Source of the DNA: an uncultured Methanosarcinales archaeon
GTDB taxonomy: Archaea > Nanobdellota > Nanobdellia > Woesearchaeales > GW2011-AR9
Assembly: GCA_964434885.1 (NCBI GenBank)
Contig: CAYSWQ010000001.1
Span: 11,327-75,326 of the forward strand
DNA: 64,000 nucleotides
Direction: 5' to 3'
Position 1 is the first letter of the stretch, and each line of letters starts with the position of its first letter. The notes beneath the pieces are model-generated. The model was not told where the DNA came from and made no database searches. It saw nothing but the letters and a program-made list of their open reading frames with translations. This document shows positions 9,214-61,820 of the stretch, piece by piece. The translations under genes were made by a program, and so were the position numbers.

Positions 9214-10572
9214 TTATTTTCTTTTGATAATGATAATACTAGTGCCAATGATTATTAAAGTTAGTGCTATTCCACCAATGAGATAGTTGGGAGGAATGTT
9301 TTTTAATTCGCTGATTGTTAAACCAGTAATGAGGTTTTTATTGGTGGAAAGAGGAGATTCAACTATGGTTTTTTGAGCCAATAGTTTAGTACTAGGAATT
9401 ACTTTAAATATTTCTTGATTAACACATTTTCTTTTTTCTTCTGGTTTTTTATCCATAGTTCCACAAGCGTTTTTATCAAAACATTTTCTAACATTGTAAT
9501 TATTAGTGCAATTAGTGTCCCAGGGATAACAATACCACTTTTCTTGACAATTAGATGAATAGGTGGTTGAGACATAGTTTTGAGTGGGTGTAGAATTATA
9601 ATTTAAACTTCCTCCTCCAGAACTACTAGATGAACTTCCCGATGATGTTCCTCCTCCCGAAGATGATCCTCCGCCGGAAGAGCTACTAGAAGAAGAAGAA
9701 GAAGAGCTACTAGATGAATTGCTACTTGAACTAGAAGAAGTAGTGGTGTTGTTAACAATGACATAAATTGTTTCATTATCACTTAAATTGCCATCAGAAA
9801 CAACAAAAGTTAAATTATGAGTTCCTACTTGAGTAGAGTTAGGTAGCCAAGAAAATAATTGACTGATGAAAGTTGCGCCAGTTGGTAAGTTGATAACGGA
9901 ATAAGTAAGATTATCTGATTCATTATCTGTTGCATTGATAGTGAAATTTAAAGTGTTGTTTTCAGTGATGGTGTGGTTACTGATTGAATTTAAGATTGGA
10001 GCGGTGTTGGTTGTGTTTGTGGTGTTGGTTGTTGAATTGGTGGTGGAAGTGTTGTTGGTTAAAATAGTATTAGTTGAATTATAAGTGCAATTTTGTTTAA
10101 TCCAGTCTACACTGTCAATGTTTGTATCTTGTCCATTGGGATTTCTAGCTAGACATTCATCGGAAACATTATTTGAATTTCCATCGGGAGCATTATCTGA
10201 AGTATTGCCATCATCCCAATCAGCATAAGTAACATTATCTATCTGGTTGCTTTCGTTATCATAAAGAATTATTTGTCCATTATTATTTTGGGCCCCACTT
10301 GGATTAAGTATTGTGTAATAACTTCCTGCAGAGATTGTTCCAGAAAGAGTTTCATTTACTGGGGTGCTATCTATTAAAGCTAAAATCCAACCAGTGATGT
10401 TAATTGAAGAAGTGTTGTTGTTATATATTTCAAACCATTCATCACTTGATCCTGTTTTTCCACTGTTATCCCAATCTGTTTGTGGATCAACAACAAATTC
10501 ATTGATTAAAACATTGGCAGAAACTAAATAACACAAACATAGCAAAAATAATACTCCTATCCAAAACCTCAT
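9214..10572 (-). CDS. Surface protein: signal peptide, lamin-tail domain (LTD), He_PIG-like Ig domain, poly-Ser linker, Cys-rich module, C-terminal TM anchor
   Basis: VLINEFVVDP...EWFEIYNN is the LTD signature; APILNSISNHTITENNTLNFTINATDNESDNLTYSV is Ig-like; a 40-residue Ser/Gly run; C-terminal hydrophobic helix plus KRK; more than 30 N-x-S/T sequons. Confidence 0.6.
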   Translation of the reverse strand: MRFWIGVLFLLCLCYLVSANVLINEFVVDPQTDWDNSGKTGSSDEWFEIYNNNTSSINITGWILALIDSTPVNETLSGTISAGSYYTILNPSGAQNNNGQIILYDNESNQIDNVTYADWDDGNTSDNAPDGNSNNVSDECLARNPNGQDTNIDSVDWIKQNCTYNSTNTILTNNTSTTNSTTNTTNTTNTAPILNSISNHTITENNTLNFTINATDNESDNLTYSVINLPTGATFISQLFSWLPNSTQVGTHNLTFVVSDGNLSDNETIYVIVNNTTTSSSSSSNSSSSSSSSSSSSSSGGGSSSGGGTSSGSSSSSSGGGSLNYNSTPTQNYVSTTYSSNCQEKWYCYPWDTNCTNNYNVRKCFDKNACGTMDKKPEEKRKCVNQEIFKVIPSTKLLAQKTIVESPLSTNKNLITGLTISELKNIPPNYLIGGIALTLIIIGTSIIIIKRK

Positions 10573-18769: not shown

Positions 18770-19864
18770 TTGTTTCTTTCTTTGTTGTTTATGAGCTTAT
18801 TCAAAGATATGTTAAAAAGTGGAGAGAGTTTGTTTAGAGATACTATTGTGCTTTCTTATGATTTCCAACCAAAATTATTGAAATATCGTGAGAATGAACA
18901 GGTGCGTTTTGCAGTAGCAATTAGGCCTTTGTTGCAGGAGAGGAGTGGGCGTAATTTGTTTGTTTATGGGGCCCCAGGAATTGGAAAAACTACTGCTTGT
19001 AAACATGTAATTAGAGAATTAGAAGAAAGTGGGGAAGACGTAGTTCCCATTTACATTAATTGTTGGAAAGAAAATACAACATTTAAGATTTTTACAAAAA
19101 TTTGTGAAGAATTCGGACATAAGTTTTTACAACAGAAAAAAACTACTGATTTGTTTAACATCATTAGAGCCAAATTGAATAAAGCGGGAACAAGTGCAGT
19201 GTTTATTTTTGATGAAATAGATAAGTTGGATGATTTTGATTATTTATATACAATTCTAGAGGATATCTATCGGAAAAGTATTTTTTTAATTACTAATTAT
19301 AAAGAAAGTTATAATGATTTAGATGAACGAATTAAAAGTAGATTGGGGGTCGAATTTCTTTATTTTAGACCTTATAATAAAGCAGAGATAAAAGGGATTT
19401 TGGAAGAGAGGAAAAAGTATGCTTTTGTTCCAGGAGTGTGGGGAACAGAATCTTTTGATAAATTAGTTGATAAAACTGCCCAGTTGGGTGATTTAAGAGT
19501 TGGTTTGTATTTAATGAAAGAAGCTTGTATGTTAGCGGAAGATAAAAGTTTGAAAAAAATAAGTTTAGAAGAAGTTGATAGTGCAGTTAAAAAAGTAGAT
19601 GAATTTCAAATCAAACAAAAAGATGGTTTAGATGAAGAATTGATTAACATTTTAGATCTGATTAAAAATAATTCTGAAAGTAGAATTGGAGATTTGTTTG
19701 GTTTATATGAAAAGAATTCTGGAAAATTAAGTTATAAAAGTTTTAAAAGGAAAATTGATAAATTGGATGAAGGAAGATTCATTTCAACTAAACAAGATCG
19801 TTCTGGTGGCGGAGTGACTACGATTGTTAGTTATGGTGCTGAAAAGAAATTAACTGATTTTTGA
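18770..19864 (+). CDS. cdc6: Orc1/Cdc6 replication initiator (AAA+ ATPase plus winged helix)
   Basis: Walker A GAPGIGKTT, Walker B IFDEID, sensor regions, C-terminal wH; the true start may be the internal Met (MSLFKDML..., 18791). Confidence 0.8.
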   Translation: MFLSLLFMSLFKDMLKSGESLFRDTIVLSYDFQPKLLKYRENEQVRFAVAIRPLLQERSGRNLFVYGAPGIGKTTACKHVIRELEESGEDVVPIYINCWKENTTFKIFTKICEEFGHKFLQQKKTTDLFNIIRAKLNKAGTSAVFIFDEIDKLDDFDYLYTILEDIYRKSIFLITNYKESYNDLDERIKSRLGVEFLYFRPYNKAEIKGILEERKKYAFVPGVWGTESFDKLVDKTAQLGDLRVGLYLMKEACMLAEDKSLKKISLEEVDSAVKKVDEFQIKQKDGLDEELINILDLIKNNSESRIGDLFGLYEKNSGKLSYKSFKRKIDKLDEGRFISTKQDRSGGGVTTIVSYGAEKKLTDF

Positions 19865-19903
19865 AGGAAAATTTTATATTGTTGTTTATCCTCAAGAAAA
19901 AAA

Positions 19904-20463
19904 TGGAAAGAGAAATTAGAGATAGAAATATTTTAGATACGTTTTGTACTGAATTTTGTGATATTGTTGAAAAACATTGCAAGTATATTATTGTGAGTGG
20001 GTTTGTAGCTATTGCTTCAGGTAGAACTAGAGGAACAGAAGATATTGACATGATTATTGAAAAAATTAATTTTAATGAATTTAAACAACTTTATGCTAAT
20101 TTAGTAAAAGAGGGATTTGTTTGTATGCAATCTGATAAAGAAGAAGAAATTTATTCTTATTTAAAAGATAATATTTCAATTCGATTTACCTGGAAAGATA
20201 AAGTGCTTCCTGAAATGGAAATTAAATTTGCAAAAGATTGTTTGGATGATTATCAAATTAAAAATCGTATTAAATTAGATCTAACTGGATTAAATGTCTG
20301 GTTTAGCAGTATAAACGACAATATTGCATTTAAAGAAGAATTATTAAAAAGTGCTAAAGATTTAGAAGATGCTAGGCATTTGAGAATTGTTTATACTGAA
20401 TTAGTTGATGAAGATAAAATAAAAGAAATTAAAAGATTGGTTAAAGAATATAGATTAAAATGA
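19904..20463 (+). CDS. Nucleotidyltransferase-fold domain protein
   Basis: SGFVAIASGRTRGTEDIDMII fits the minimal NTase motif hG[GS]x9-13DhD; start taken at MEREIRD to avoid overlap with cdc6. Confidence 0.45.
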
Positions 20464-20675
20464 GAAAAGAACATCAAGAACAAATTGAACGTTGGGCAAT
20501 TTTTGTTAAAAATAATCCAACTAAATGGAAAAAAATACATACTGAATTTATTGATAGTATTTTTGATAAACATGAACAATTTAGAGAAAGAATGTTAAAG
20601 CTTCCTGGAGGGAAGGAGAAATTAATTAAACTTCATAAGATAAAAAATAAATCAAATTATGATTTCTTAAAATGA
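20460..20675 (+). CDS. Small hypothetical protein, translationally coupled to the NTase gene
   Basis: 71 aa; 4-nt overlap with the upstream NTase gene. Confidence 0.3.
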   Translation: MRKEHQEQIERWAIFVKNNPTKWKKIHTEFIDSIFDKHEQFRERMLKLPGGKEKLIKLHKIKNKSNYDFLK

Positions 20676-20766
20676 TAATTTTCCCAAAAATCATTTAGAA
20701 AAACAAACTATTTTACAACTAATCTAATAATATTTTAACATTTTGTAGAAAAGAAAGTTATTTTGA

Positions 20767-21222
20767 TCAAATCAAATAAACTAGCATGGCCATTGCAAAA
20801 CCAATTAAAGAACCAACAAAAACTTGTAATGGTGTGTGTCCCATGGCAAAATGAGTTTCTTTTTTTATTTTCAATTTTTTGATAATCTGGTTGATAATAT
20901 GTCCTTCTTCACCCACTGTCCTTCTAACTCCAAAAGCATCCCTGATCACAACAAAAGCCAAAACTAAACTAACAGCAAAAGTAGTAGTAACTCCATCGAC
21001 TAAATAAATGATTGTCGCTAAGGAAACCACAAAAGCAGAGTGAGATGAAGGCATGCCGCCAGTCACAATCAAATCTGACCAAGTTAATTTTTTATGTTTT
21101 AACCAGATAAATATGAGTTTTATTAAGGGTGTACCCAAACCAGCTACTAATAAAGTCCACAATATCTTGTTCATTTTTAGAAGAAATATTTTGGAGTTTA
21201 TATAAGTTGCTTTTGGAAACAT
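20767..21222 (-). CDS. Divergent PAP2-family membrane protein (DUF212)
   Basis: Signature GGMPSSHSA plus 4 TM helices. Confidence 0.5.
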   Translation of the reverse strand: MFPKATYINSKIFLLKMNKILWTLLVAGLGTPLIKLIFIWLKHKKLTWSDLIVTGGMPSSHSAFVVSLATIIYLVDGVTTTFAVSLVLAFVVIRDAFGVRRTVGEEGHIINQIIKKLKIKKETHFAMGHTPLQVFVGSLIGFAMAMLVYLI

Positions 21223-21253
21223 ATAAATAGGTTAAATCATTACTTGAAGAAAG

Positions 21254-21949
21254 ATGAAATATAAACATCGAATTAAAAGTTATGTGATTTTAGGTTTAAT
21301 TATCTTGGGTTTTTTTGCTTTATCAAAATTTTTTCCGGGGTTAAATAAATTTGCTTCTCCTACTTTTGTCAGAGATTATTTGATTGGATTAGGTACCGCA
21401 GGATATTTTATGTTTATTGTGTTGTTATTAGCAACTATTCCTTTACCAATGCCTAGCACACCAGTAGTTTTAGGTGGAGGTTATGTATATGGTGTTTTTT
21501 TAGGAACAATCTTGGCATTGATTGCTTGTGCAATAGGGGGAACAATATCTTTCTTATTAGTTAAAAAATATGGTAAACCTCTTTTGTATAAAATGGTGGA
21601 TGAAAAACATATTGTTCATTTCAACCATGTGTTCAAAAAGAGAGGAATTATGGCGGCGATTGTTTCTTATTCTATCCCTTTATTTCCTAGTGATGTAATT
21701 AATTTTATTTTAGGTTTAACAAAAATGAAATACCATATTTTTTTAATTTTGTTGATATTAACTCACATTCCAAGATATTTAATTGTTAATTCATTGGGAG
21801 AAGATTTAGCCACTCGTTTTACTTTAAAAACTTTGATTATAGCAATTTTAGGAGCGGTGTTTGTTTTAGTAGCAATTTTTAGAGAAAAATTAAAGAAAAT
21901 ATTCTTTAAAGAATTGAATGTTTTGGAAAAAGATTTAGGTATAAAATAA
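21254..21949 (+). CDS. TVP38/TMEM64/DedA-family membrane protein
   Basis: 6 TM; ...YSIPLFPSDVINFILGLTKMKY resembles the DedA/SNARE-associated core. Confidence 0.55.
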   Translation: MKYKHRIKSYVILGLIILGFFALSKFFPGLNKFASPTFVRDYLIGLGTAGYFMFIVLLLATIPLPMPSTPVVLGGGYVYGVFLGTILALIACAIGGTISFLLVKKYGKPLLYKMVDEKHIVHFNHVFKKRGIMAAIVSYSIPLFPSDVINFILGLTKMKYHIFLILLILTHIPRYLIVNSLGEDLATRFTLKTLIIAILGAVFVLVAIFREKLKKIFFKELNVLEKDLGIK

Positions 21950-22003
21950 TCATTACTTTTTATTTATAAACAACACATTTCTTTTCAAGAATAGTTAGAA
22001 ATT

Positions 22004-22819
22004 TTAAAAAGATTCAGATATCGAAAGCAAGTGCGTTCTTCTTAATTTAACAGTATTACTGATTGAATTTAATCCCATCTTTATTAAACCAGATAAACCC
22101 TTGCCTTCTCTAGGGCGATAATACGCACCTTGAACTAATGGGTCAGCAGCAATTTGAGTCAACGTTTTTTCATCTCCCACTGCACCATAAATTACTGGTT
22201 CTTCTACCTCTCCAAAAGAAAGCTTGATTGGAATTGTTAAAACATCATAATCTTTTGGCCTAGTAACCATGCATTGAGTATTGCTAACATTACCAATTAA
22301 ATGAAGACTACAGAAATTATAATTAGTATTTAATTCTTGATTGGCTTTTTTTACTAAATCAATTTGTTTTCCAAAAAAAGAATCAAAGTAAACATCTTGA
22401 GAAGAAACCCTATATTCCTTAAGCAATTTTATGGTCTCTTTAATTGCAATTTCAGAAGTTGGTTTTTTTAGTTCGAAACAAAGAACCATTCTTTGGTTAT
22501 TGGTGTGTTGATAATTTTGAATAGTATCCAATACTTCTCTTAAGCTAGTGGCAATTCCTAATTGATTTAATTCCTGATATTTTGCCTGAGAAGGTAATGA
22601 GAAATTTTGATGAGTTAAAATTAATTCTCCAGTCTCTTTGATTGTTAAGAGATCTCCTTCAAAACAAGGAATTACTTTTCGTTGAACTATTGGTTCCAAA
22701 CTAATTAAATCTTCAATAGTTCTTTTCAAAATATCATCACCATGGTTAATGTTTCCATCTAGAAAACTATGTTTAACCACTAGAAATTCTTCTGGAGTAA
22801 TTATCTTATTTTCAGTCAT
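22004..22819 (-). CDS. Hypothetical protein, possibly a GDPD-like TIM-barrel phosphodiesterase
   Basis: Weak similarity of C-terminal ...VIYGAVGDEKTLTQIAADPLVQGAYY to GDPD-family C-termini; N-terminal motif not canonical. Confidence 0.3.
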   Translation of the reverse strand: MTENKIITPEEFLVVKHSFLDGNINHGDDILKRTIEDLISLEPIVQRKVIPCFEGDLLTIKETGELILTHQNFSLPSQAKYQELNQLGIATSLREVLDTIQNYQHTNNQRMVLCFELKKPTSEIAIKETIKLLKEYRVSSQDVYFDSFFGKQIDLVKKANQELNTNYNFCSLHLIGNVSNTQCMVTRPKDYDVLTIPIKLSFGEVEEPVIYGAVGDEKTLTQIAADPLVQGAYYRPREGKGLSGLIKMGLNSISNTVKLRRTHLLSISESF

Positions 22820-32498: not shown

Positions 32499-34010
32499 TT
32501 AGTTTTCTTCTCTTAAAGTTCCTTGTTTCTTTAATTTTTCAAATAAGTTTTCTCCAGCTTCAACATTAGCATCTTTCTTTGGTTTTTCTGCTTCCGCTTT
32601 AGTTTTTTCTTCTTGAACTAAGTCGCTTGCTGAAGGAACTTCTTGAATAGCTGGTTTCTCTTCAACTATTTCTGATTTGTTTTCTGGTTCTTCTTTAGCA
32701 AATTGTTTTTTAGTAGCTTCAATAATATCTAAAGCAGCATCTTTTTGAGCTTCTGGAGTAGGATTTGGTTCTGAGGTTGGTTCTGGTTCAGGTCCAACCT
32801 CTTCTTGTTTTTCTTCCTCAACTGGTTTTTCTTCAACCGGTTCTTCTGCTGGAGATTCTTCTTTCTTTTCTTCTTCAGCAGGTTCAGTAGTAGGTTCTTC
32901 TGTAGGTGTTTCCTCAGGTTTAGATTCTTCAGCAGGAGCTTCTTCTTTAGGCTCTTCTTTTGGTTCTTCAGGTTTAGATTCTTCTGCAGGAGCTTCTTCT
33001 TTAGGCTCTTCTTTTGGTTCTTCAGGTTGAGCTTCCTCTTCAGGTTTGGCTTCTTCCTCTTGAACAGGTTCTTCTGCTGGAGCTTCTTCTTTCTTTTCTT
33101 CTTTAACTGGTTCTTCTGCAGGTTTATCTTCTGATTTTGATTCTTCTTTAGGTTTGGCTTCAGTCGAAGCTTCAATCTTAGCAGTCTCTTTCAAACTCAA
33201 AGCTTGCTGTTCAGTTTTAGCTAAAATCTCTTCTGTAGTTTCATCAGTTAAGATGTCTTGATCTAAAGCCAAATTACGTGAATCTTGAGCTGCTTTCTGT
33301 AATAATAATTCAATGTTATCTTTAGTTGGGTAACCAACTTCCATAGCTAAGTTGAATGCTTCTTGGAAGGCCACTCCAATGTTGTTTAAGTAAGCTTCTT
33401 CATCAACATGTAAGTCTTTACCAGCGAAAACAATTTTATCTTCCCAAGCAGCAACTAAATCTAGGCCAATTTCCATTGGTTGAATGTCTAATCTTTTTAA
33501 CATGCTAGCTAATTCTCCAGAAATAGTATCTCCTTCTTTAGCGACAACTGCATCGTCGGTGATTTTTAATTTTCCACCATCAACTTTGGTTTTAATACCT
33601 ACTGCAGCTAATTCAGAAATAATTGGTCCTGGAGCAAAATTAGTTGGTCCAGCTGGAACAACAATATCTTTTGGAGCTTCTTGTCCAGCTTTAGCAGGAG
33701 CTGAAGATTTGTTTTTTTCCAAAATTTTGTATAAAATAAAAGGATTTTCTTTAGATAATAAGACTGCAGGCATACCTTTGATTTTTTCAATCAGAGCATC
33801 AATGTTTTCTTTTTGTGAATTTTTTAAAGCTAATTGTAATAATCTTCTTCGAGCCATTACAATCAAAACATCTTTTTTTAGTAATTGTGCCCGCATGTTT
33901 TGTAGCTGTTGGGCAGGTAAATTCTGCATATTAACAATTGCAATAACAGGATAGTCTTTGATCTGTTGAGTTAACTTTTCTACCAATTTTTTCTTTTTAT
34001 CAGAGACCAT
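32499..34010 (-). CDS. rplP0: 50S ribosomal stalk protein P0 (L10e) with about 160-aa acidic Pro/Glu/Lys repeat extension
   Basis: N-terminal L10 domain ([32 protein letters not shown]...); C-terminal tail carries degenerate [18 protein letters not shown] repeats, including two exact 18-aa copies. Confidence 0.75.
32917..33024. repeat. 54-nt tandem direct repeat (2 copies, 1 mismatch) inside the P0 C-terminal extension
   Basis: ggtttagattcttc(a/t)gcaggagcttcttctttaggctcttcttttggttcttca occurs twice in tandem. Confidence 0.6.
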
Positions 34011-39506: not shown

Positions 39507-40721
39507 ATGCAGAAAACTCTGGATTATCTTTATGGGTTGGAGAGGTTTGGAATTAAATTAGGTTTGGAAGTAGTTGGTGAGTTGTTAAGATTATTGGGTA
39601 ATCCACAAGAGAAATTTAAATCAATTCATATTGCAGGAACTAATGGAAAAGGAAGTACGGCTAATTTTATTTATTCTGTTTTGAAAGAAGCTAGATATAA
39701 AGTGGGAATATATACTAGTCCCCATTTAGTTAAGTTTAATGAAAGGATTAATGTTGGTGGGGAGGAAATTACTGATTCTGAATTAGTGGAGTTAACTAAG
39801 AAAATAAAAATGGTTGTGGAAGAGAATGATTTATCCCCTACTTTCTTTGAGTTTACTACTGCATTAATGTTCCTTTATTTTGCGGAAAAGAAAGTTGATT
39901 ATGCGATTATTGAAACAGGAATGGGTGGTCGTTTAGATGCTACTAATGTTTTACATCCTTTGGTTAGTGTAATTACCAATATTTCTTTAGACCATACCAA
40001 ATATTTGGGAGAGAGTAAATTAGAAATTGCCCAAGAGAAGGTGGCTATTGTTAAAGAGAATGGAATTTTGGTTACTTCTGAGGAAGATTATTTGGTTTTG
40101 GAATTGTTTGAAAAAGTTTGTAAAGAAAAGAAAGCAGAATTAATTGTTTTGGATAATGTTAGTGATATTGAAATAAAGATGTTTGGAAAACATCAAAAGA
40201 AAAATGCTGCTTTGGCTAAAAAAGTAATTGAAGTTTCTGGGATTAAAGTTAATGAGAGTGATTTGAGAAAAGGTTTGTTGAAAGCAAAATGGCCTGGTCG
40301 GTTACAAGTAGTTAACGAGAAACCTTTTGTTATTTTAGAAGGGGCCCATAATGTTGAAGGGATGAAAAAACTAAGAGAATTTCTTGCTGAATATTTAGTA
40401 GAGACTAAATTTGAGAAAAAAATATTGGTGTTGGGAATTGCTAAAGATAAAGAGATTAAAAAGTTGGTTGATTTGATTGTGCCTTTTTTTGATGAAATTA
40501 TTTTAACTAAAGGGAATTTTAAACCAGCAGAGTTGGAAGTGATTGAGAAAGAAATTTCCAAAGAAGTTATTAAAATTGAAGATCCTAAAAAGGCAGTGGA
40601 AACAGCAATTAGTTTAGTTGAGGAGAAAGGTTTTGTTTTGGTTACTGGTTCATTGTATTTAGTTGGGGATGTTTTAAAATATATTCCGGACTTTAGTAAT
40701 TTATTTAAAAAAATTAAATAG
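39507..40721 (+). CDS. folC: Folylpolyglutamate synthase / dihydrofolate synthase (Mur-ligase family)
   Basis: HIAGTNGKGST P-loop, ...SLDHTKYLG..., Mur ligase middle and C-terminal domains. Confidence 0.8.
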   Translation: MQKTLDYLYGLERFGIKLGLEVVGELLRLLGNPQEKFKSIHIAGTNGKGSTANFIYSVLKEARYKVGIYTSPHLVKFNERINVGGEEITDSELVELTKKIKMVVEENDLSPTFFEFTTALMFLYFAEKKVDYAIIETGMGGRLDATNVLHPLVSVITNISLDHTKYLGESKLEIAQEKVAIVKENGILVTSEEDYLVLELFEKVCKEKKAELIVLDNVSDIEIKMFGKHQKKNAALAKKVIEVSGIKVNESDLRKGLLKAKWPGRLQVVNEKPFVILEGAHNVEGMKKLREFLAEYLVETKFEKKILVLGIAKDKEIKKLVDLIVPFFDEIILTKGNFKPAELEVIEKEISKEVIKIEDPKKAVETAISLVEEKGFVLVTGSLYLVGDVLKYIPDFSNLFKKIK

Positions 40722-53006: not shown

Positions 53007-53219
53007 TTATTTTTTTCTAAAGTAATCATAAACAGCAGAGAGAATAAAGACTGCTTGTAGAATGATGAAGATTGGGTCTTTAAGATAGATGCTGTATATT
53101 TCAAGACATACTCCTCCGAAGATGAAGAATAAGTCTTTTTGTTTTCTTTTCTTTAGTAAAACTCCAAAAATAATTAGAAGCAAACCTACAATCCCAAATA
53201 ATTTGAAAAGATTAAACAT
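53007..53219 (-). CDS. Small 2-TM membrane protein
   Basis: 70 aa, two hydrophobic helices; overlaps the upstream membrane protein gene. Confidence 0.3.
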   Translation of the reverse strand: MFNLFKLFGIVGLLLIIFGVLLKKRKQKDLFFIFGGVCLEIYSIYLKDPIFIILQAVFILSAVYDYFRKK

Positions 53220-53709
53220 GATGTTTGCTCCTAAATCGATCGATCAAATAAGGGGCAATAAACGCTACTGCAAAAACCAAAGCAATAATCCAAGGATTAT
53301 GGGTTGTGTTCTGTACTTTTAAGTCTTTAATGAATTGGTTGGAAATAATAACCATGATTATAACATTAATTAGGCCGAGAAGAGGAACGATTATTCCAGC
53401 AAGAAGATGATGTTTTTTTTCTAAATGTCCAATATCTAAAACTAAGAAATTATAGAGGAAACCAATTGTGCCGGCTAAAACAACAATTAAAATATACAAC
53501 AACCATTTATTCAAGACAATCAAAAAAGGAATTAAAATTAATGATACAATTAAGTTAGCGAAGACAATTACTACTAATGCCGACCAAAAGATGATCTTAG
53601 AGAAAAAAACATCGTGTTTTTCAGTTTGTTCTAGGAGCGTTTCAGCTTTCTTAATCTCGGCTTCGTGCCAGCCTTTGTTCAATAGTGCCTCTTTTTTTTG
53701 GGGATGCAT
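53212..53709 (-). CDS. 4-TM membrane protein
   Basis: 165 aa, hydrophobic; immediately downstream of minD. Confidence 0.4.
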   Translation of the reverse strand: MHPQKKEALLNKGWHEAEIKKAETLLEQTEKHDVFFSKIIFWSALVVIVFANLIVSLILIPFLIVLNKWLLYILIVVLAGTIGFLYNFLVLDIGHLEKKHHLLAGIIVPLLGLINVIIMVIISNQFIKDLKVQNTTHNPWIIALVFAVAFIAPYLIDRFRSKHHV

Positions 53710-53711
53710 TC

Positions 53712-54446
53712 TTAACTTATTTTTTCATCCAGTAAATACTCTGCCAGTTTTAAATATTGCTTAGATGATTTGGCGCGCGGATATAAATGATGTGAAGGTG
53801 CTTGTTTATGTAATGCTTTTTTGATTTTCTTATCTTGTGGGACATCTATTAGTAGGGGTATCCCTAATGTTTTTTCGGTATCAGTTGCTTTGATTTCATG
53901 ACGTCCTTTATTAGTTAGGTTTAAGACAAAACCAGGGATTGTGTTGTTGTTTTCCCTAGCTAATTCTATCGCTTTCAGAGAATCTATTAGAGAGCTTAAA
54001 TTAGGGTTAGCAACAACGATTGCTTCGTCTGTGTTTTTTAATACTTGGACCAATTCATATCCTAAACCAGCAGGACAATCAACTAAAACAATATCTGCGA
54101 TGTTTTCTAAATGTTCAAAAATTTCGGTGATTTTGTCAGGTTGGGTTTTTTTGAAATCTTGATAAGAAACGGAACTGGGAATGAAATTTATTCCAGAATG
54201 ATGTAAATGAATAACTTCAGGTAATGATTTTGTTCTTCTAAGAAAATCATTTAAACTCGCTTCCACAGAAGCAACCCCCAAATGACCAGCCAAATTAGGA
54301 GTAGCAAAGTTAGCGTCTAAAAGAATTACTTTTTTTCCCAATTTAGTTAATGCATGACCTAAATTTAAAGTGGTGGTTGTTTTACCTACACCTCCTTTTC
54401 CAGAAATCATGGCAATAAATTTAGTCATCTTCGGTAATGCCCTCAA
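53712..54446 (-). CDS. minD: MinD/ParA-family P-loop ATPase
   Basis: Deviant Walker A ISGKGGVGKTTTT, ...ILLDAN..., 244 aa. Confidence 0.8.
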   Translation of the reverse strand: MRALPKMTKFIAMISGKGGVGKTTTTLNLGHALTKLGKKVILLDANFATPNLAGHLGVASVEASLNDFLRRTKSLPEVIHLHHSGINFIPSSVSYQDFKKTQPDKITEIFEHLENIADIVLVDCPAGLGYELVQVLKNTDEAIVVANPNLSSLIDSLKAIELARENNNTIPGFVLNLTNKGRHEIKATDTEKTLGIPLLIDVPQDKKIKKALHKQAPSHHLYPRAKSSKQYLKLAEYLLDEKIS

Positions 54447-54888
54447 TAAATTCTACGGCGTAATCAAAAAATTGAAAAGATACTTTTTCGCAAGTTCCAA
54501 GATTGTCGATATCTAATTCTGTTGTTTTAAAACCATTGTTTACTACCAAAGTTACATGGCGACGATATTCTTCTCTTTTCGAATATTTGGAATTCAAAGT
54601 ATCTCTTAAGAAACAATAAAAAGTAATCATATTCAAAAATCTTTGATCTTCTGGATAAGTATCAATAACCAATGTACTCTTTAAAGAAGGGCTTTTGGGA
54701 ATGGAAGAAATTAAATTTTTTTCTTTCGCATCTTCTAAAATAGCTTCAATTAAAAAGTCAAAAATACTAATTAATCTTTCTAAAGCGTTCCTAATAACGT
54801 CTACAGTTCGAGTGTACTTTAACGTAACATGGATAGTGTGTTCTAAGCGTTTAAGTTCTTCCCGAGCATCTAAAAGAGATTCGTTCAT
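54421..54888 (-). CDS. Hypothetical protein, paralog A of a tandem pair
   Basis: 155 aa; aligns with the upstream neighbour (HTIHVTLKYTRT...IEAIL versus DHILNVTYPLIK...ISSIL; YRRHVTLVVNNGFKTTELDIDNL versus FKRKDRFIICNKNYQMRGITTNQL). Confidence 0.4.
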   Translation of the reverse strand: MNESLLDAREELKRLEHTIHVTLKYTRTVDVIRNALERLISIFDFLIEAILEDAKEKNLISSIPKSPSLKSTLVIDTYPEDQRFLNMITFYCFLRDTLNSKYSKREEYRRHVTLVVNNGFKTTELDIDNLGTCEKVSFQFFDYAVEFIEGITEDD

Positions 54889-54907
54889 CTTGTTTTTAAG
54901 TAGAATA

Positions 54908-55399
54908 TTAGAGGTTCTTAAAAAACCTTTCCCTCTGGGAAGTGATATCTTGTGTTATTTTTAAGAATTCCTTAGTTTTTTGTAAATATGTTTTAAGTTG
55001 ATTAGTGGTAATTCCTCGCATTTGATAGTTCTTATTGCAAATAATAAAGCGGTCTTTTCTCTTAAATTCAATAGGGCTTTTTTTGTGTAAATGAATTATT
55101 TCTTGTAAATCTTGAATTAAGTTCATATATTCTTGGTCTATTTTGTATCTGGGGACGCACTTGTATCTAAAAATATTAAATTTACTTTCAAAAGTATCTT
55201 CGAATAAAGGAACTAATTTGAAAATTCTTTCGTGGTGAAGAATAGAACTAATAGCGTTGTTTAGTGCTAAAAAAAGATTATCTGTTACACCAAGTAATAA
55301 TTTAGTATCTTTAATTAAAGGATAAGTTACATTAAGAATATGATCTGCTACTTGGAAATTCTTATGAGATTCTTCTCTTAAGGCCTGAAATTTTTCCAT
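54908..55399 (-). CDS. Hypothetical protein, paralog B of a tandem pair
   Basis: 163 aa; see paralog A. Confidence 0.4.
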   Translation of the reverse strand: MEKFQALREESHKNFQVADHILNVTYPLIKDTKLLLGVTDNLFLALNNAISSILHHERIFKLVPLFEDTFESKFNIFRYKCVPRYKIDQEYMNLIQDLQEIIHLHKKSPIEFKRKDRFIICNKNYQMRGITTNQLKTYLQKTKEFLKITQDITSQRERFFKNL

Positions 55400-56521: not shown

Positions 56522-56806
56522 GTGAGGTGTTATCCAATGTTAAAAATGAAAAAAATTTCAGAAACTTATGATATGAAAGTATTTACAGACTCTGGAGATT
56601 ACTTCGGAGATGTTGAAGATAGTATTATTACTGGCAACAAGGTTTTCGGATGGAAAATCAAAGCCACTAAAGCATCATTGTTAAGTAAGGTTTTGGGTAG
56701 TGCAAAAGGAGTTATTGTTCCACACCAATTAGTTGGGGCTGTAGGAGATGTGTTAATTATCTCAAAAAGTGCTATTCCAAGTCATGTAGAAGAAAAAGAA
56801 GAATGA
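56522..56806 (+). CDS. PRC-barrel domain protein
   Basis: ...ISETYDMKVFTDSGDYFGDVEDSII...VIVPHQLVGAVGDVLIISK is the PRC-barrel pattern. Confidence 0.55.
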   Translation: MRCYPMLKMKKISETYDMKVFTDSGDYFGDVEDSIITGNKVFGWKIKATKASLLSKVLGSAKGVIVPHQLVGAVGDVLIISKSAIPSHVEEKEE

Positions 56807-58849: not shown

Positions 58850-60196
58850 TTATGGAGTAGTTAAGTTCAAACGTTGTCCATCTTTCATTAAATGAACTGT
58901 TTTGTCTTGTACATAACCCATCTCAACTGCTAAATCTGCTAAATGGTGAGAAAGTTTGTATTCACAATGAGAAGGAATGATGTGTTTTGGTTTTACTAAC
59001 TCAAATAGATCTCGATGATCTTCTCTAGCGGCATGACCTGAAACATGGATATCTCTAAAGATTCTTGCCCCTTTTTGTCGTAAAGCACTTTCTAATTCGG
59101 CCCGGTTGTCTTTATTTAAAGTAACTGGAATGACTGAACAACTGAAAACAACTAAATCTCCTGGCTTCAAATCAAACTTTAATTCTCCACGGGCCATTCT
59201 TGGTAATATTGCTCGTGGTTCTCCTTGATGTCCGGTTACAACCATTAAATATTTTCCTTTATTTTTAGAGGCCTGTTGCAAGAAACTTTGAATTTGTCTT
59301 CTTTTTTTGATTAGTTTTACATCTTTACGAAAATCAATAATATCTAAGTTTTGTCCAGCTAAAGTATATTTGGATAAAGACCTTCCTAAGAAAACAATTT
59401 GTCTTCCTAGTTTTTTACCCATTTCAACAATACTTTTTAATCTAGCTAAATGAGAAGCGAAAGTAGTTACAATCAAAGCGTGATTTTGGGAATTAACTCC
59501 TAGTAAAACGTCTTTTAACATCTGTTTGGCTACTGATTCAGAAGGCATCTTCTTATGATCATGAGCATATAATGATTCGCAAATTAAAGCGAGAACATTT
59601 TTATTTCCTAGTTCTTCTAGTCTTTTGAAATTTGGTTTCTTTCCCAAAGTTGGTTGACGATCGAACTTGTAATCATTAGCATACATAATAGTTCCATATT
59701 TGGTGTGTAGCGCAATCAAAGAAGCTTGTGGGATTGAATGTGTAACATTAATTAGTTCTAGAGTGAGGTTCTTGGAAAGTTGATATATAGAGTTAAGATT
59801 TAAACCAATAACTTTGTTAGGAACATCAATATGGTCATCTCTAATCATCCCTTTCAAAACTTCAGCAGTATAAGGGGTACAAATAACTGGTGCTTTTGGA
59901 AAATGAGAACTACAAAAAGGAATTGCCCCAATGTGGTCTAAATGACCGTGAGCAGGAACGATGGCTTTGACTTTGTCATGCCAATCTTTGATTAACCCCA
60001 TATCTGGAACAGCCTCAACATTTAATAATTCTTCATATTGTTTAGGGCTGATGTCTTCTCTGTCTTCAGAATAACTGATGTAGTTTTCCATGTGCAAACC
60101 AATATCAAAAATAACAACTTCATCATCTACTTTGATGGCAGTACAATTCTTTCCAGTTTCGGAGTAACCTCCAACTGCACATATTTCTACTGGCAT
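58850..60196 (-). CDS. Beta-CASP family ribonuclease (metallo-beta-lactamase fold; aRNase J / aCPSF2-like)
   Basis: HGHLDH motif, beta-CASP motifs; start taken at MPVEICAVGG (60196). The ORF-track start at 60301 would read into the structured GC-rich element. Confidence 0.75.
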   Translation of the reverse strand: MPVEICAVGGYSETGKNCTAIKVDDEVVIFDIGLHMENYISYSEDREDISPKQYEELLNVEAVPDMGLIKDWHDKVKAIVPAHGHLDHIGAIPFCSSHFPKAPVICTPYTAEVLKGMIRDDHIDVPNKVIGLNLNSIYQLSKNLTLELINVTHSIPQASLIALHTKYGTIMYANDYKFDRQPTLGKKPNFKRLEELGNKNVLALICESLYAHDHKKMPSESVAKQMLKDVLLGVNSQNHALIVTTFASHLARLKSIVEMGKKLGRQIVFLGRSLSKYTLAGQNLDIIDFRKDVKLIKKRRQIQSFLQQASKNKGKYLMVVTGHQGEPRAILPRMARGELKFDLKPGDLVVFSCSVIPVTLNKDNRAELESALRQKGARIFRDIHVSGHAAREDHRDLFELVKPKHIIPSHCEYKLSHHLADLAVEMGYVQDKTVHLMKDGQRLNLTTP

Positions 60197-60248
60197 TTTA
60201 AGAGAAAAATAGTTTTGGTTTAAAAATGTTTGTTTAAAAGAAATAAAT

Positions 60249-60460
60249 GTGCGCGGCAGGGCTTTCGAAAAAAGTTGCACTTTTTCTAAATCATTAAGCA
60301 CAGCTTAATATTCGAACCTGCGTAGGTACTAAACCAACGGATGGCTCCCGAGTATTTCATCAGTCTGGATAGACCTCTTCACTCAATGACTTGAGTATGG
60401 ACTCATTAGCACCTTAATGCTAAACGAACCGTCCCGTTTGACCACTCCGGCACGCGCACA
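60249..60460. ncRNA. Candidate structured non-coding RNA of unknown class (about 210 nt)
   Basis: GC-enriched block in an AT-rich spacer; ends are perfect inverted complements (GUGCGCG...CGCGCAC); internal perfect palindromes (AUUAAGC-UGU-GCUUAAU, GAAAAAG-UGCAA-CUUUUUUC); K-turn-like GAGU-GAAGA ... UGAUGA-AAU-ACUC; TATA-like boxes on both sides. Confidence 0.4.
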
Positions 60461-60561
60461 AGTAAAATGATAAATTATTGTGTTTTTATAAAGTTATTGT
60501 AGAAAAAGAAGTGTTAAATTAGTACTATATAAATACTAAAAAAAGTAGGAATAAAAAATAA

Positions 60562-61044
60562 TTAAGAAAGACTGCTTAGTTTCTTTTCGATTTCTCCAAG
60601 TTCTTTTTCCAAAGAATCTAGTTCTGGATGAACTGGTGGAGCTGGTTCTGGCTCAGGTTCTTGTTCAGGCACAGGTTCTGGCTTAGGTTCTGGTTTTGGT
60701 TTTAACTCAGGATGTTCAGCCTCAATCTCTTTCTTGATCCGACCATAGGTTCTTTCAGCTTTAAGTTTGCTTCGAGGTAACAATCTTCTTAGTTTATTGA
60801 TAGTTAATTTAATTTCTCGTAGGTCTTCTTTTAATAAACCAATGGTGAATGTTTTCTCTTCTTTAACTTTCTTGAACTCTTCATAACTTTGTAAGAATTG
60901 AATTACTTCTCGTGTTGGCTCTAAAACATTTCTACGTAACTCTACAGGATCACCCAAACCAATAAAATACGGTTCTTTTGGTTTAGCAACTGGTTTTCTT
61001 TTAGAAGTTGTTCTCTTCCGTTTGGTTGTTTTTTTCTTAGCCAT
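60562..61044 (-). CDS. Hypothetical basic/helical protein with PEPK-repeat tail (member 3 of motif-sharing triplet)
   Basis: K/R-rich N-terminus, motif PYFIGLGDPVEL, helical core, KPKPEPKPEPVPEQEPEPEP repeat, short C-terminal helix. Confidence 0.4.
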   Translation of the reverse strand: MAKKKTTKRKRTTSKRKPVAKPKEPYFIGLGDPVELRRNVLEPTREVIQFLQSYEEFKKVKEEKTFTIGLLKEDLREIKLTINKLRRLLPRSKLKAERTYGRIKKEIEAEHPELKPKPEPKPEPVPEQEPEPEPAPPVHPELDSLEKELGEIEKKLSSLS

Positions 61045-61046
61045 TC

Positions 61047-61274
61047 TTAAAATCGTTCTGGTTCATGCAATGAATTTTCTATTGTCTTGATACGATTGTC
61101 TATTTCAGCTAAAGCGCCTTGCCAACTTTGTAATTGAGCGTCTTCTTCTTGTTTTAGCTGATTGATTTTATTTAATGTTTCTTTAGCAGAAGCTAACCTA
61201 GCTTTTAGAGTAGCAGTGGTATTAATAACTTCCTCATATTCTTCAATTTTAACAAAAACAGGCATTTTTTCCAT
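61047..61274 (-). CDS. Hypothetical small coiled-coil protein (member 2 of triplet)
   Basis: 75 aa; N-terminal PVFVKIEEYEEV motif then a single long helix. Confidence 0.4.
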   Translation of the reverse strand: MEKMPVFVKIEEYEEVINTTATLKARLASAKETLNKINQLKQEEDAQLQSWQGALAEIDNRIKTIENSLHEPERF

Positions 61275-61280
61275 TTTGAA

Positions 61281-61721
61281 TCACCTTTTAAAGATTAGAT
61301 CATCCATGTATAATAATCTCTCATGGATTTTTCTTAACTCTTTTCTTAATTTTTCATAATTTTTATTTTCATTATACTCTGAATTTTCAAGTTTTTCTGT
61401 AGTTAAATCCAACTCTAAAACATGAGTCTTAATATCGCTGGCATCCTTGAGAAGTTCTTGATAAGATTGGACTCGAAGAAAGAAAGGATAATTAAGAGCA
61501 GGAGTACTCATCGTTGTTGGTTTAGGAAAACTTTTTTCTTCAGAAATTTCTGTAGGTAGTGGTTCCATGTCAGGCATCTGAGGAGGTTCCTCCAATCCAA
61601 CAGATTTTTTAATATCTTCTGGAGCAGGAATTTTACTAGTTGATTCAGGGAATTTTAACAAATCATCTGAATGTTCAGGTAAAGGTACTGTCACTTTCTT
61701 TTTTTTAAAAAACCATCCCAT
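61281..61721 (-). CDS. Hypothetical protein with disordered acidic/Pro N-terminus and helical C-terminus (member 1 of triplet)
   Basis: 146 aa; motif PFFLRVQSYQEL at the start of the helical part. Confidence 0.4.
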   Translation of the reverse strand: MGWFFKKKKVTVPLPEHSDDLLKFPESTSKIPAPEDIKKSVGLEEPPQMPDMEPLPTEISEEKSFPKPTTMSTPALNYPFFLRVQSYQELLKDASDIKTHVLELDLTTEKLENSEYNENKNYEKLRKELRKIHERLLYMDDLIFKR

Positions 61722-61820
61722 TTTATCTATTTAAAAAGAAATACTCTTATAAACTTTGTTGAGTATTTTATAATAGTAAAAATAGAAAAGTATTTATTGT
61801 GGATAAAATTCCCGTGGAAG

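What the first reader, a model, noticed from the sequence alone, without database searches (positions are those of the whole stretch)
60562..61721. Triplet of short helical proteins sharing a P-x-F-h-x-h-x-x-[Y/P]-x-E-h motif
Three consecutive minus-strand genes (146, 75 and 160 aa) encode proteins with no family I can name. Each has a flexible charged or Pro-rich N-terminal segment followed by a helical or coiled-coil region. In each, the helix begins with the same short motif: PFFLRVQSYQEL, PVFVKIEEYEEV and PYFIGLGDPVEL. This suggests a locally duplicated family forming homo- or hetero-oligomeric coiled-coil assemblies. The third member adds a (KPEP)n repeat and a terminal amphipathic helix of the kind used to dock onto an ATPase or a membrane. 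The cluster sits between the PCNA/beta-CASP region and a large LTD adhesin gene. It could be a cytoskeletal, division or secretion-associated module specific to this lineage.
Basis: seen in the sequence. Interest (0 to 1): 0.65.

Follow-up and report, generated by a model that had tools for sequence, protein, structure and literature searches.

The report
Conserved Woesearchaeota three-gene coiled-coil operon
Three small adjacent genes form an operon kept in the same order in every relative found, all of them Woesearchaeota-type archaea; two of the proteins are true paralogues, none matches a named family, and together they look like a membrane-tethered coiled-coil adaptor whose job is still unknown.

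Summary
They are real, tightly packed genes.

- **No known family.** No Pfam, NCBIfam or PDB-sequence match reaches significance.
- **Conserved order.** All 26 non-redundant related loci with enough upstream DNA carry P1-P2-P3 in that order. Every relative that carries an organism name is "Candidatus Woesearchaeota". The P3 family alone has 1389 clusters at 50% identity.
- **Paralogy, partly.** The C-terminal 68 aa of P1 and all of P2 are paralogues (hhalign probability 99.1%, E 7e-19). P3 is not detectably homologous, scoring no better than reversed-sequence controls. It does share helix length, heptad phase and one charged core position when aligned without gaps from the motif.
- **Conserved accessory features.**
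  - P1 has an N-terminal hydrophobic-plus-polybasic stub (MGLFxFLKKK), a polyproline stretch and an LPxFP motif.
  - P3 has Lys-rich disordered segments, in some relatives a C2H2 zinc finger, and a near-invariant acidic C-terminal helix (ELxKLExELxxIExKL).
- **Structure models.** AlphaFold2 gives one 56-66-residue helix each for P1 and P3.

Best reading: a parallel heteromeric coiled coil, tethered to the membrane by P1, that recruits a partner through P3. Cell division or chromosome segregation is a guess from gene neighbourhood (ScpB, PCNA). The function is inferred, not shown.

The parts
61747..61753 (-). TATA-like box (TTTATAA) about 29 nt upstream of the P1 start codon; likely archaeal promoter giving a leaderless or short-leader operon transcript
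   Evidence: Read directly from the sequence. Inference only; the available promoter scanner covers bacterial sigma-70 sites only.
61281..61721 (-). P1, 146 aa: N-terminal membrane-binding-like stub, conserved Pro-rich motifs, variable linker, C-terminal P2-like coiled-coil domain
   Evidence: ORF; homologues; diverse alignment A6; AlphaFold2 model with residues 1-78 of low confidence and a helix at 80-145.
61695..61721 (-). P1 aa 1-9, MGWFFKKKK: hydrophobic/aromatic stub followed by a polybasic cluster. Family consensus M[GA][LIF]Fx[FL][LF]KKK. Candidate membrane-targeting sequence.
   Evidence: Conserved in all 35 P1 homologues aligned. Its helical hydrophobic moment is not above shuffled controls, so it is a hydrophobic-plus-basic patch rather than a classical amphipathic helix. 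Short N-terminal helices of this size bind membrane in archaeal ESCRT-III (PMC12818579).
61581..61694 (-). P1 aa 10-47: conserved short linear motifs (VPLPE, equivalent to L[ED][VI]PxPPP in relatives; LLKFP, equivalent to LPxFP; EDIKKSVGLEEPP in the close clade)
   Evidence: Invariant columns in A1; the motifs are kept in distant members.
61284..61487 (-). P1 aa 79-146: about 68-aa domain paralogous to P2 (PFFLRV strand-like start, then one long heptad-repeat helix)
   Evidence: The P2 HMM hits P1 homologues down to E 1e-15. hhalign probability 99.1%, E 7e-19, 69 columns. AlphaFold2 helix 80-145, block-mean pLDDT 81-94.
61047..61274 (-). P2, 75 aa: the minimal coiled-coil domain on its own. 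Invariant V8, Y13, L40, K41, E44, D45, W51, E71.
   Evidence: ORF; 32 homologues; diverse alignment A8 at 35-91% identity. Start lies 6 nt after the P1 stop, with a GGTGA Shine-Dalgarno-like element.
60562..61044 (-). P3, 160 aa: Lys/Arg-rich tail, hydrophobic strand-like motif, 56-residue basic helix, LPRSKLK, a second helix, (KPEP)n linker, acidic C-terminal helix
   Evidence: ORF; homologues; AlphaFold2 helices 33-88 (pLDDT 96-98), 96-110 and 140-159. Start lies 2 nt after the P2 stop.
60976..61044 (-). P3 aa 1-23: Lys/Arg-rich disordered tail (MAKKKTTKRKRTTSKRKPVAKPK)
   Evidence: Sequence. The tail is present in the close clade only; other clades place Lys-rich stretches, or a C2H2 zinc finger, in the linker instead.
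60781..60975 (-). P3 aa 24-88: EPYFIGLGDPVE start and long helix with the near-invariant LEPTREVIQFLQSYEEF core
   Evidence: Invariant columns in A3; AlphaFold2. Same hydrophobic register as P1 and P2 at zero offset.
60631..60714 (-). P3 aa 111-138: Pro/Glu/Lys-rich (KPEP)n linker, variable in length and sequence among homologues
   Evidence: Alignment A3.
60565..60630 (-). P3 aa 139-160: acidic amphipathic C-terminal helix ELDSLEKELGEIEKKLSSLS; candidate docking peptide
   Evidence: The motif L[EDQS]x[EQDS][LM]xx[IVLM]Exx[LIMV] occurs in 84 of 89 diverse family members and ends 3-4 residues from the C-terminus in 80 of those 84. AlphaFold2 helix 140-159.
60535..60561 (-). T-rich stretch directly after the P3 stop (TTATTTTTTATTCCTACTTTTTTTAG): likely archaeal oligo-T terminator closing the operon
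   Evidence: Read from the sequence. Inference.

Best explanation
P1, P2 and P3 are the three subunits of one cytoplasmic complex specific to Woesearchaeota-type (DPANN) archaea.

**Proposed assembly (inferred).** Each protein contributes one helix of about 57-66 residues. Each helix begins with a short hydrophobic strand-like motif. The helices pack in parallel and in register into a heteromeric coiled coil about 8-9 nm long. One core position is charged in all three chains.

**Subunit roles.**
- P1 and P2 are paralogues; this is shown.
- P1 additionally carries an N-terminal hydrophobic-plus-polybasic stub. This probably sits in the cytoplasmic face of the membrane and tethers the rod through a Pro-rich linker of about 70 residues. 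The linker carries conserved peptide motifs.
- P3 supplies the basic helix that would pair with the two acidic ones. It also has Lys-rich disordered segments, and in some relatives a C2H2 zinc finger, which could bind nucleic acid or acidic lipid.
- P3 ends in a near-invariant acidic helix on a flexible linker. This would dock an unidentified partner, or another copy of the complex.

**Proposed function.** The complex would act as a membrane-anchored adaptor or scaffold. The operon is persistently divergent from a wHTH-protein/ScpB operon and lies next to PCNA, so the most likely process is chromosome segregation or cell division.

**Shown versus inferred.**
- Shown: real genes, operon structure, strict co-occurrence, P1-P2 paralogy, the conserved motifs, and helical predictions for P1 and P3.
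- Inferred: heteromer formation and its geometry, membrane binding, nucleic-acid binding, the docking role, and the cellular process.
For: - **Operon.** Gaps of 6 and 2 nt, a TATA-like box, and a T-run terminator.
- **Co-occurrence.** All 26 non-redundant loci with enough upstream DNA have P1-P2-P3 in this order, down to about 35% identity.
- **Family size.** The P3 family has 1389 clusters at 50% identity with E<=1e-3.
- **Taxonomy.** Every named relative is Candidatus Woesearchaeota.
- **Not mobile.** No relative was found in viral contigs.
- **Paralogy.** P1 C-terminus versus P2: probability 99.1%, E 7e-19.
- **Structure models.** AlphaFold2 gives single long helices for P1 (80-145) and P3 (33-88).
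- **Shared register.** Aligned without gaps from the motif, the hydrophobic pattern correlates best at zero offset: 0.88 for P1-P2 and 0.60/0.59 for P3 against P2/P1. All three also lack a hydrophobic residue at the same core position, the one occupied by the invariant E44/D45 of P2.
- **Charge complementarity.** Net helix charge is about +4.8 for P3 against -2.3 for P1 and -3.4 for P2.
- **P1 N-terminus.** The stub and Pro motifs are conserved in 35 homologues. Short N-terminal helices are sufficient for membrane binding in archaeal ESCRT-III (PMC12818579).
- **P3 C-terminal helix.** Present in 84 of 89 members at a fixed distance from the end.
- **Zinc fingers.** C2H2 insertions occur in some P3 linkers.
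- **Neighbourhood.** ScpB is found in 16 non-redundant loci (upstream of the trio wherever it is seen), the beta-CASP nuclease in 17 and PCNA in 16.
Against: - No multimer prediction or experiment could be run, so stoichiometry, orientation and even direct interaction are unproven.
- P2 was not modelled on its own; its sequences served only as alignment rows in the P1 job.
- The P1/P2 domain could instead be a helical hairpin with its loop at the invariant LKxEED. The P1 model's confidence dips there, and designed helix-loop-helix proteins align across it.
- The P1 N-terminus has no significant helical hydrophobic moment.
- g/e' charge pairing does not clearly favour hetero- over homo-pairs.
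- The zero-offset register correlation for P3 (0.60) is only modestly above another in-phase offset (0.51 at -14).
- Conserved gene order next to ScpB and PCNA may be inherited housekeeping synteny with no functional meaning.
Confidence: 0.45

Rival explanations
1. ESCRT-III-like membrane-remodelling module. P1 would supply an ESCRT-III-type N-terminal membrane anchor and a proline-rich MIM2-like motif. P3 would supply a C-terminal MIM1-like helix. A Vps4/MIT-domain ATPase would then remodel a polymer built from the three proteins.
For: - The P1 N-terminus (MGLFxFLKKK) resembles ESCRT-III/PspA N-termini; this comparison is from my own knowledge. The role of short N-terminal helices is documented in PMC12818579.
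- The L[ED][VI]PxPPP motif in P1 recalls the proline-rich MIM2.
- The P3 C-terminal helix has the LxxxLxxI spacing of MIM1 and sits at the very C-terminus after a flexible linker.
Against: - No Snf7/ESCRT-III Pfam match even at E<=10.
- The proteins are far shorter than the ESCRT-III core, and the models show single helices rather than an alpha1-alpha2 hairpin with alpha3-5.
- The Arg that defines MIM1 is Glu here.
- DPANN archaea are described as FtsZ-based dividers (PMC7617429).
- No MIT or Vps4 gene was found among the window ORFs that were scanned.
Confidence: 0.08
2. Nucleoid-associated or regulatory complex. P3 would bind DNA or RNA through its Lys-rich tails and, in some relatives, zinc fingers. 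P1 and P2 would be oligomerisation partners. The role would be in chromatin organisation or gene regulation, with membrane tethering incidental or absent.
For: - Lys/Arg-rich tail or linker in nearly all P3 members, and C2H2 zinc fingers in several.
- Neighbours are ScpB, a TrmB-like wHTH protein, gyrase A and PCNA.
Against: - The basic N-terminal tail is clade-specific, and many members begin directly at the motif.
- The most conserved parts are the helices and the acidic C-terminal helix, not the basic segments.
- The conserved hydrophobic-plus-basic N-terminus of P1 would be left unexplained.
Confidence: 0.15
3. Cell-envelope module. The trio would form the cytoplasmic anchor or assembly platform for the divergently transcribed LTD surface protein, which has a signal peptide and a C-terminal transmembrane anchor. 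It would link the surface layer to the cytoplasm.
For: - An LTD-family gene (family F6 in the clustering) is found in 13 non-redundant related loci and always lies upstream of the trio on the opposite strand. In about half of them it abuts P1 directly; in the others a radical-SAM gene lies between. The window's own LTD gene abuts P1.
- The LTD protein ends in a transmembrane helix with a short cytoplasmic tail.
Against: - The LTD gene is missing from several loci that keep the trio (L024, L026, L029, L031, L034, L035, L038, L039); in some of these the ScpB operon lies directly upstream of P1 instead.
- The window carries a second LTD gene elsewhere, so LTD proteins are common in this genome.
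Confidence: 0.1
4. Antiparallel-hairpin reading. P1C and P2 would be GreA/Gfh1-like or prefoldin-like coiled-coil hairpins with an acidic tip (the invariant E44/D45). They would insert into or cap a partner enzyme, and P3 would be an unrelated partner.
For: - Recurrent but weak PDB hits of P2 and P1 to the Gfh1 N-terminal hairpin (E 0.37-2.5), aligned tip to tip.
- Designed helix-loop-helix proteins align across LKxEED.
- The P1 model's confidence dips at the equivalent position.
Against: - None of these hits is significant.
- The heptad phase continues unbroken across the putative loop.
- AlphaFold2 models one continuous helix for P1.
- A membrane-tethered secondary-channel factor has no precedent that I know of.
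Confidence: 0.1

Closest known systems
SepF / ZipA / FtsA-type membrane tethers of the FtsZ divisome
   Same: P1 has the same layout: a short N-terminal membrane-targeting stub, a flexible Pro-rich linker, then a small C-terminal oligomerisation or binding domain. Like SepF it is a small cytoplasmic protein, and it occurs in an archaeal lineage said to divide with FtsZ.
   Different: No sequence match to SepF (PF04472) or any other tether. The C-terminal domain is a long helix, not the alpha/beta SepF fold. Three subunits are involved. FtsZ binding is untested.
CdvA (archaeal ESCRT-associated division protein: PRC barrel, three-helix coiled coil, C-terminal E3B docking peptide)
   Same: Both are archaea-specific coiled-coil proteins with a conserved C-terminal docking peptide on a flexible tail. 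A local resemblance exists between P1/P2 helix 2 and CdvA residues 114-149 (LKVKDDQNK...LNDIEDQLAHIDKAV against LKNEEDAEL...LEEIERKIxFVDKxL). A small PRC-barrel-like gene lies in the conserved neighbourhood.
   Different: The similarity is not significant (E 0.39). None of the three proteins contains a PRC barrel. The docking element here is an acidic helix, not an E3B peptide. The host lineage is not known to have CdvB or CdvC.
ESCRT-III / PspA superfamily
   Same: An N-terminal hydrophobic-plus-basic membrane stub, helices forming a coiled coil, and a C-terminal amphipathic helix after a flexible linker.
   Different: These features are split over separate small proteins. There is no Snf7 profile match and no five-helix core, and the MIM1 arginine is absent.
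SNARE-type parallel hetero-oligomeric helical bundles
   Same: Helices of about 57 residues giving about 17 heptad layers, contributed by different small proteins, with a conserved charged layer inside the hydrophobic core.
   Different: No SNARE profile match and no C-terminal transmembrane anchor. The bundle itself is only inferred, and the charged layer is acidic or basic rather than Q/R.
DivIVA / GpsB coiled-coil membrane scaffolds
   Same: Small coiled-coil proteins that bind the membrane and recruit division or segregation partners.
   Different: The only Pfam DivIVA hit is sub-threshold (E 0.088, 13 bits against a 28-bit cut-off). The membrane-binding element is different.

Membership tests
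ESCRT-III / Snf7 (PF03357) | Match to the Snf7/ESCRT-III sequence profile | tested here: not met
   No Snf7 hit for P1, P2 or P3 at E<=10, nor for 10 divergent P3 members at E<=0.1.
ESCRT-III / Snf7 (PF03357) | Five-helix core of about 200 aa with an alpha1-alpha2 hairpin | tested here: not met
   The proteins are 75-160 aa. AlphaFold2 shows single long helices for P1 and P3.
ESCRT-III / Snf7 (PF03357) | C-terminal MIM motif that binds the MIT domain of Vps4 | tested here: inconclusive
   The P3 C-terminal helix has the Leu spacing of MIM1 but Glu where MIM1 has its conserved Arg. No Vps4 or MIT gene was available to test, and none was seen among the window ORFs scanned.
SepF (PF04472) | Match to the SepF profile / alpha-beta FtsZ-binding domain | tested here: not met
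   No Pfam hit. The modelled P1 C-terminal domain is one helix.
SepF (PF04472) | N-terminal membrane-targeting sequence followed by a flexible linker | tested here: inconclusive
   The hydrophobic-plus-polybasic stub and Pro-rich linker are conserved, but the helical hydrophobic moment is not above shuffled controls. Membrane binding is untested.
SepF (PF04472) | Binds the FtsZ C-terminal domain | not testable with these tools
   Needs a binding assay or a multimer prediction with the cognate FtsZ.
CdvA | N-terminal PRC-barrel domain | tested here: not met
   No PRC hit in P1-P3. A separate 94-aa PRC-like ORF lies at 56522-56806.
CdvA | Significant sequence similarity of the coiled-coil region | tested here: not met
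   Best match of the P1 profile to CdvA chain 9s9g_A is E 0.39 (domain E 0.96) over 36 residues.
DivIVA (PF05103) | Match to the DivIVA profile above the gathering score | tested here: not met
   P2 scores E 0.088, 13.2 bits against a 28-bit cut-off.
GreA/Gfh1 N-terminal coiled-coil hairpin | Significant similarity and an antiparallel hairpin fold | tested here: not met
   E 0.37-2.5 to Gfh1 chains. The P1 model is a continuous helix.
   P1C-P2 is met (probability 99.1%, E 7e-19). P3 against P1, P2 or P1+P2 is not met (E 0.0007-0.04, probability <=27%, comparable to reversed controls). The shared heptad register at zero offset leaves very distant homology or co-adaptation open.
   26 of 26 non-redundant loci with sufficient flanking DNA have all three genes in the same order.

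The most novel reading that the evidence does not exclude
The trio would be a previously unrecognised, Woesearchaeota-wide cytoskeletal adaptor: a heterotrimeric parallel coiled coil. P1 would pin it to the membrane. P3 would couple it to the chromosome or the FtsZ divisome through its Lys-rich or zinc-finger segments and its invariant acidic C-terminal helix. Functionally it would be a split analogue of CdvA or SepF, built from families with no known relatives.
Probability: 0.3. Interest if true: 0.75.

Novelty: categorically new. Interest (0 to 1): 0.5.

Why it matters
Woesearchaeota and their relatives are among the most widespread uncultivated archaea, with tiny cells and reduced genomes. 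Almost nothing is known about their cell biology beyond the presence of FtsZ.

An operon kept in every relative found, with strict gene order and near-invariant peptide motifs, is likely to encode something these cells need. The P3 family alone has more than a thousand clusters at 50% identity.

If the trio is a membrane-to-chromosome or membrane-to-divisome adaptor, it would add a new component class to archaeal division and segregation. It would also give a defined, small and easily expressed three-protein target for biochemistry in a lineage without cultures.

If it proves to be a generic scaffold, it still defines two new protein families that currently have no annotation.

Tried and rejected
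- **Family libraries.** Pfam and NCBIfam scans of the three proteins, and Pfam scans of 10 divergent P3 members, gave only sub-threshold coiled-coil noise plus genuine C2H2 fingers in a few P3 linkers.
- **PDB sequence searches.** Six profiles were tried (A1, A2, A3, A4, A6, A8). Nothing was significant. The best hits were designed coiled coils, haemagglutinin HA2, Gfh1 and CdvA at E>=0.005.
- **Fold search.** Foldseek of the P3 model against the PDB found 0 matches, as expected for extended helices. The afdb50 library was unavailable.
- **P3 as a paralogue of P1/P2.** Rejected at the level of detectable homology, using reversed-sequence controls.
- **Classical amphipathic helix at the P1 N-terminus.** The hydrophobic moment is not above shuffles.
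- **g/e' charge analysis for heteromer preference.** Not decisive.
- **Structure prediction with diverse P1 sequences.** P2 rows were used in the alignment instead.
- **Metagenome scan with the very diverse alignment A4.** Failed for lack of a conserved stretch. The narrower A5 worked.
- **Mobile-element origin.** No relatives in viral contigs.
- **Literature.** Searches on DPANN, Woesearchaeota, cell division and coiled coils found no description of these proteins.
- **ESCRT/Vps4 coupling.** Considered unlikely; see the rival explanation.
- **Resolving the split tRNA anticodon.** Attempts by exhaustive intron deletion were ambiguous.
Full report
**1. What is there**

On the minus strand lie three ORFs: P1 (61281-61721, 146 aa), P2 (61047-61274, 75 aa) and P3 (60562-61044, 160 aa).
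- They are separated by 6 and 2 nt. A GGTGA element precedes P2.
- A TTTATAA box lies about 29 nt upstream of the P1 start. A long T-run follows the P3 stop.
- This is the anatomy of a single archaeal operon.

The window itself is a low-GC (about 31%) archaeal chromosome segment. It encodes exosome subunits, aIF2 subunits, Orc1/Cdc6, XPD, seryl-tRNA synthetase, ribosomal uL1 and uL10, SecDF, PCNA and a beta-CASP nuclease.

A pattern covering them matches nothing else in the window's ORFs and nothing in 300 shuffles. That test is post hoc.

**2. No known family**

- Pfam and NCBIfam give only sub-threshold coiled-coil noise.
- PDB sequence searches with six different profiles find nothing significant.
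- Foldseek of the P3 model against the PDB finds nothing.
- Literature searches found no description of these proteins.

**3. Relatives and distribution**

Word-indexed searches found 9, 32 and 28 relatives of P1, P2 and P3. All come from metagenomes or metagenome-assembled genomes.

A full HMM search with the P3 alignment found 1389 clusters at 50% identity with E<=1e-3, and 684 with E<=1e-10. Lengths among the best 150 are 109-221 aa, and none that was looked up carries a functional name.

Every relative with an organism label is "Candidatus Woesearchaeota archaeon". No relative occurs in viral contigs.

**4. Synteny**

I fetched 43 loci and searched all their ORFs with family HMMs.
- In all 26 non-redundant loci with enough upstream DNA, including the window, the order P1-P2-P3 holds. 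This persists down to about 35% identity.
- Every exception is a contig that ends inside or next to the trio.

The wider neighbourhood is also conserved (Pfam).
- Upstream and divergent lie a TrmB-like wHTH protein (Pfam MJ0538 family) and ScpB. Gyrase A and a THUMP methyltransferase often lie beyond them.
- Downstream lie the beta-CASP nuclease and PCNA, and often a small PRC-barrel gene.
It is absent in others that keep the trio, such as L029 and L034. It is therefore not part of the module.

**5. Are the three proteins related?**

With close homologues only, P1 against P2 gave E 2e-4 and probability 46%. P3 aligned to neither at the motif.

With diverse members the picture sharpens.
- The P2 HMM hits P1 homologues down to E 1e-15.
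- hhalign of 32 P1 C-terminal domains against 54 P2 sequences gives probability 99.1%, E 7e-19 over 69 columns, starting exactly at the motif.
- P1 therefore equals an N-terminal extension plus a P2-like domain.

P3 against P1, P2 or both gives E 0.0007-0.04 and probability <=27%. This is the same range as reversed-sequence controls. No homology is detectable.

When the three family profiles are laid side by side without gaps from the motif, more emerges.
- The hydrophobic patterns coincide from position 30 to 65: positions 30, 33, 36, 44, 47, 51, 54, 58, 61 and 65.
- The correlation peaks at zero offset: 0.88 for P1-P2 and 0.60/0.59 for P3 against P2/P1. The next best value is 0.51.
- The heptad phase runs unbroken through the whole helix.
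- The one core position without a hydrophobic residue is the same in all three. In P2 it holds the invariant E44/D45.

This fits either very old common ancestry or co-adaptation for in-register packing. It does not prove either.

**6. Anatomy of each protein across the family**

P1 (alignment A6):
- an N-terminal M[GA][LIF]Fx[FL][LF]KKK stub;
- an L[ED][VI]PxPPP polyproline stretch;
- an LPxFP motif;
- a variable acidic, Pro-rich linker;
- the 68-aa helix domain.

The stub is hydrophobic plus polybasic, not a high-moment amphipathic helix. N-terminal helices of only 9-11 residues suffice for membrane binding in archaeal ESCRT-III (PMC12818579).

P2 is the domain alone and is very conserved.

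P3:
- a hydrophobic start, EEVFYVGVxDPxE;
- a long basic helix with a near-invariant core;
- an LPKTKLR motif;
- a Lys- or Pro-rich linker of variable length, which in some members holds a C2H2 zinc finger;
- the acidic helix ELxKLExELxxIExKL. It is present in 84 of 89 diverse members and ends 3-4 residues from the C-terminus in 80 of those.

The Lys/Arg-rich N-terminal tail seen in the window is clade-specific.

AlphaFold2 models P3 as helices 33-88 (pLDDT 96-98), 96-110 and 140-159. It models P1 as disordered to residue 78, then one helix 80-145 with a small confidence dip near the charged layer. P2 was not modelled on its own. Net helix charge is about +4.8 for P3 against -2.3 and -3.4 for P1 and P2.

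**7. Most likely mechanism**

The best-supported reading is a heteromeric, parallel, in-register coiled coil made of one helix from each protein.
- P1 tethers it to the membrane through its N-terminal stub and long linker.
- P3 contributes the complementary basic helix, low-specificity nucleic-acid or lipid-binding segments, and a C-terminal docking helix. The docking helix would bind an unknown partner or support head-to-tail assembly.
- The docking helix weakly resembles the second half of the P2 helix (E 6e-4).

Assignment to chromosome segregation or division rests only on the conserved divergent ScpB operon, the nearby PCNA and PRC-barrel genes, and the analogy with SepF and CdvA architecture. 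I give the structural part about 0.6 and the process assignment about 0.3.

**8. Rivals**

- An ESCRT-III/Vps4-type system is suggested by the N-terminal stub, the polyPro motif and the C-terminal helix. It fails the profile, size and fold tests and lacks the MIM1 arginine. DPANN archaea are described as FtsZ dividers.
- A nucleoid-associated complex, an LTD envelope anchor and a GreA-like hairpin reading are each possible but less well supported. See the rival entries.

**9. Novelty**

Two protein families are involved: the P1C/P2 domain and P3. Neither has a detectable relative among named families. They are organised as a strictly conserved operon across a major uncultivated archaeal lineage. 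Every membership test against a known kind failed or was inconclusive.

I therefore rate it categorically new at the family and system level. The caveat is that its function is inferred, and it may turn out to be another membrane-tethered scaffold in the general sense.

**10. Verdict**

- Interest is moderate (0.5).

Noticed in passing
window 60248-60459, minus strand: A tRNA-Leu-like gene interrupted by at least two insertions: about 81 nt in the anticodon arm and 49 nt in the T-loop. ARAGORN and Rfam both miss it. The orthologous position in L011 (8456-8540) holds an intact tRNA-Leu(CAA). The anticodon of the window copy could not be resolved.
   Followed up: partly
window 58850-60301, minus strand: The mechanically listed 483-aa beta-CASP ORF (GTG start at 60301) overlaps the split tRNA. 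The real start is most likely the ATG at 60196 (MPVEICAVGG, 448 aa), which matches the 442-450 aa orthologues.
   Followed up: yes
window 53212-55399, minus strand: A second conserved cluster of uncharacterised genes surrounds a MinD/ParA-like ATPase (53712-54446). Two proteins with no Pfam match lie upstream of it (54908-55399 and 54421-54888) and a small membrane protein lies downstream (53212-53709). The same order is found in L001 and L011.
   Followed up: partly
window 56522-56806, plus strand: A 94-aa ORF belongs to a small PRC-barrel-like family, with weak Pfam PRC hits on its orthologues. This family recurs near PCNA in 8 related loci. PRC-barrel proteins (CdpB, CdvA) act in archaeal cell division.
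   Followed up: partly
window 18770-22100: An Orc1/Cdc6 gene (18770-19864) sits next to the window's GC minimum (0.27 at 20-22 kb) and the point where GC skew changes sign. This is a candidate replication origin. No clear origin-recognition-box repeats were found in a quick repeat scan.
   Followed up: partly
window 32499-34010, minus strand: The ribosomal stalk protein uL10/P0 ORF is 503 aa. By my recollection that is roughly 150 aa longer than typical archaeal P0. The region has the strongest AT skew in the window (-0.26), suggesting a long low-complexity C-terminal extension.
   Followed up: no
window 9214-10572 (minus) and 39507-40721 (plus): A second LTD-domain protein (452 aa) and a Mur-ligase-like protein (404 aa) are encoded elsewhere in the window. 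The lineage seems rich in LTD surface proteins and carries a bacterial-type Mur ligase homologue.
   Followed up: no
L004 10772-19551: In one relative the trio is followed by a type IV pilus/archaellum-like cluster (T2SSE ATPase, two T2SSF proteins and several unknowns) instead of the beta-CASP nuclease and PCNA. The downstream synteny is therefore not universal.
   Followed up: no
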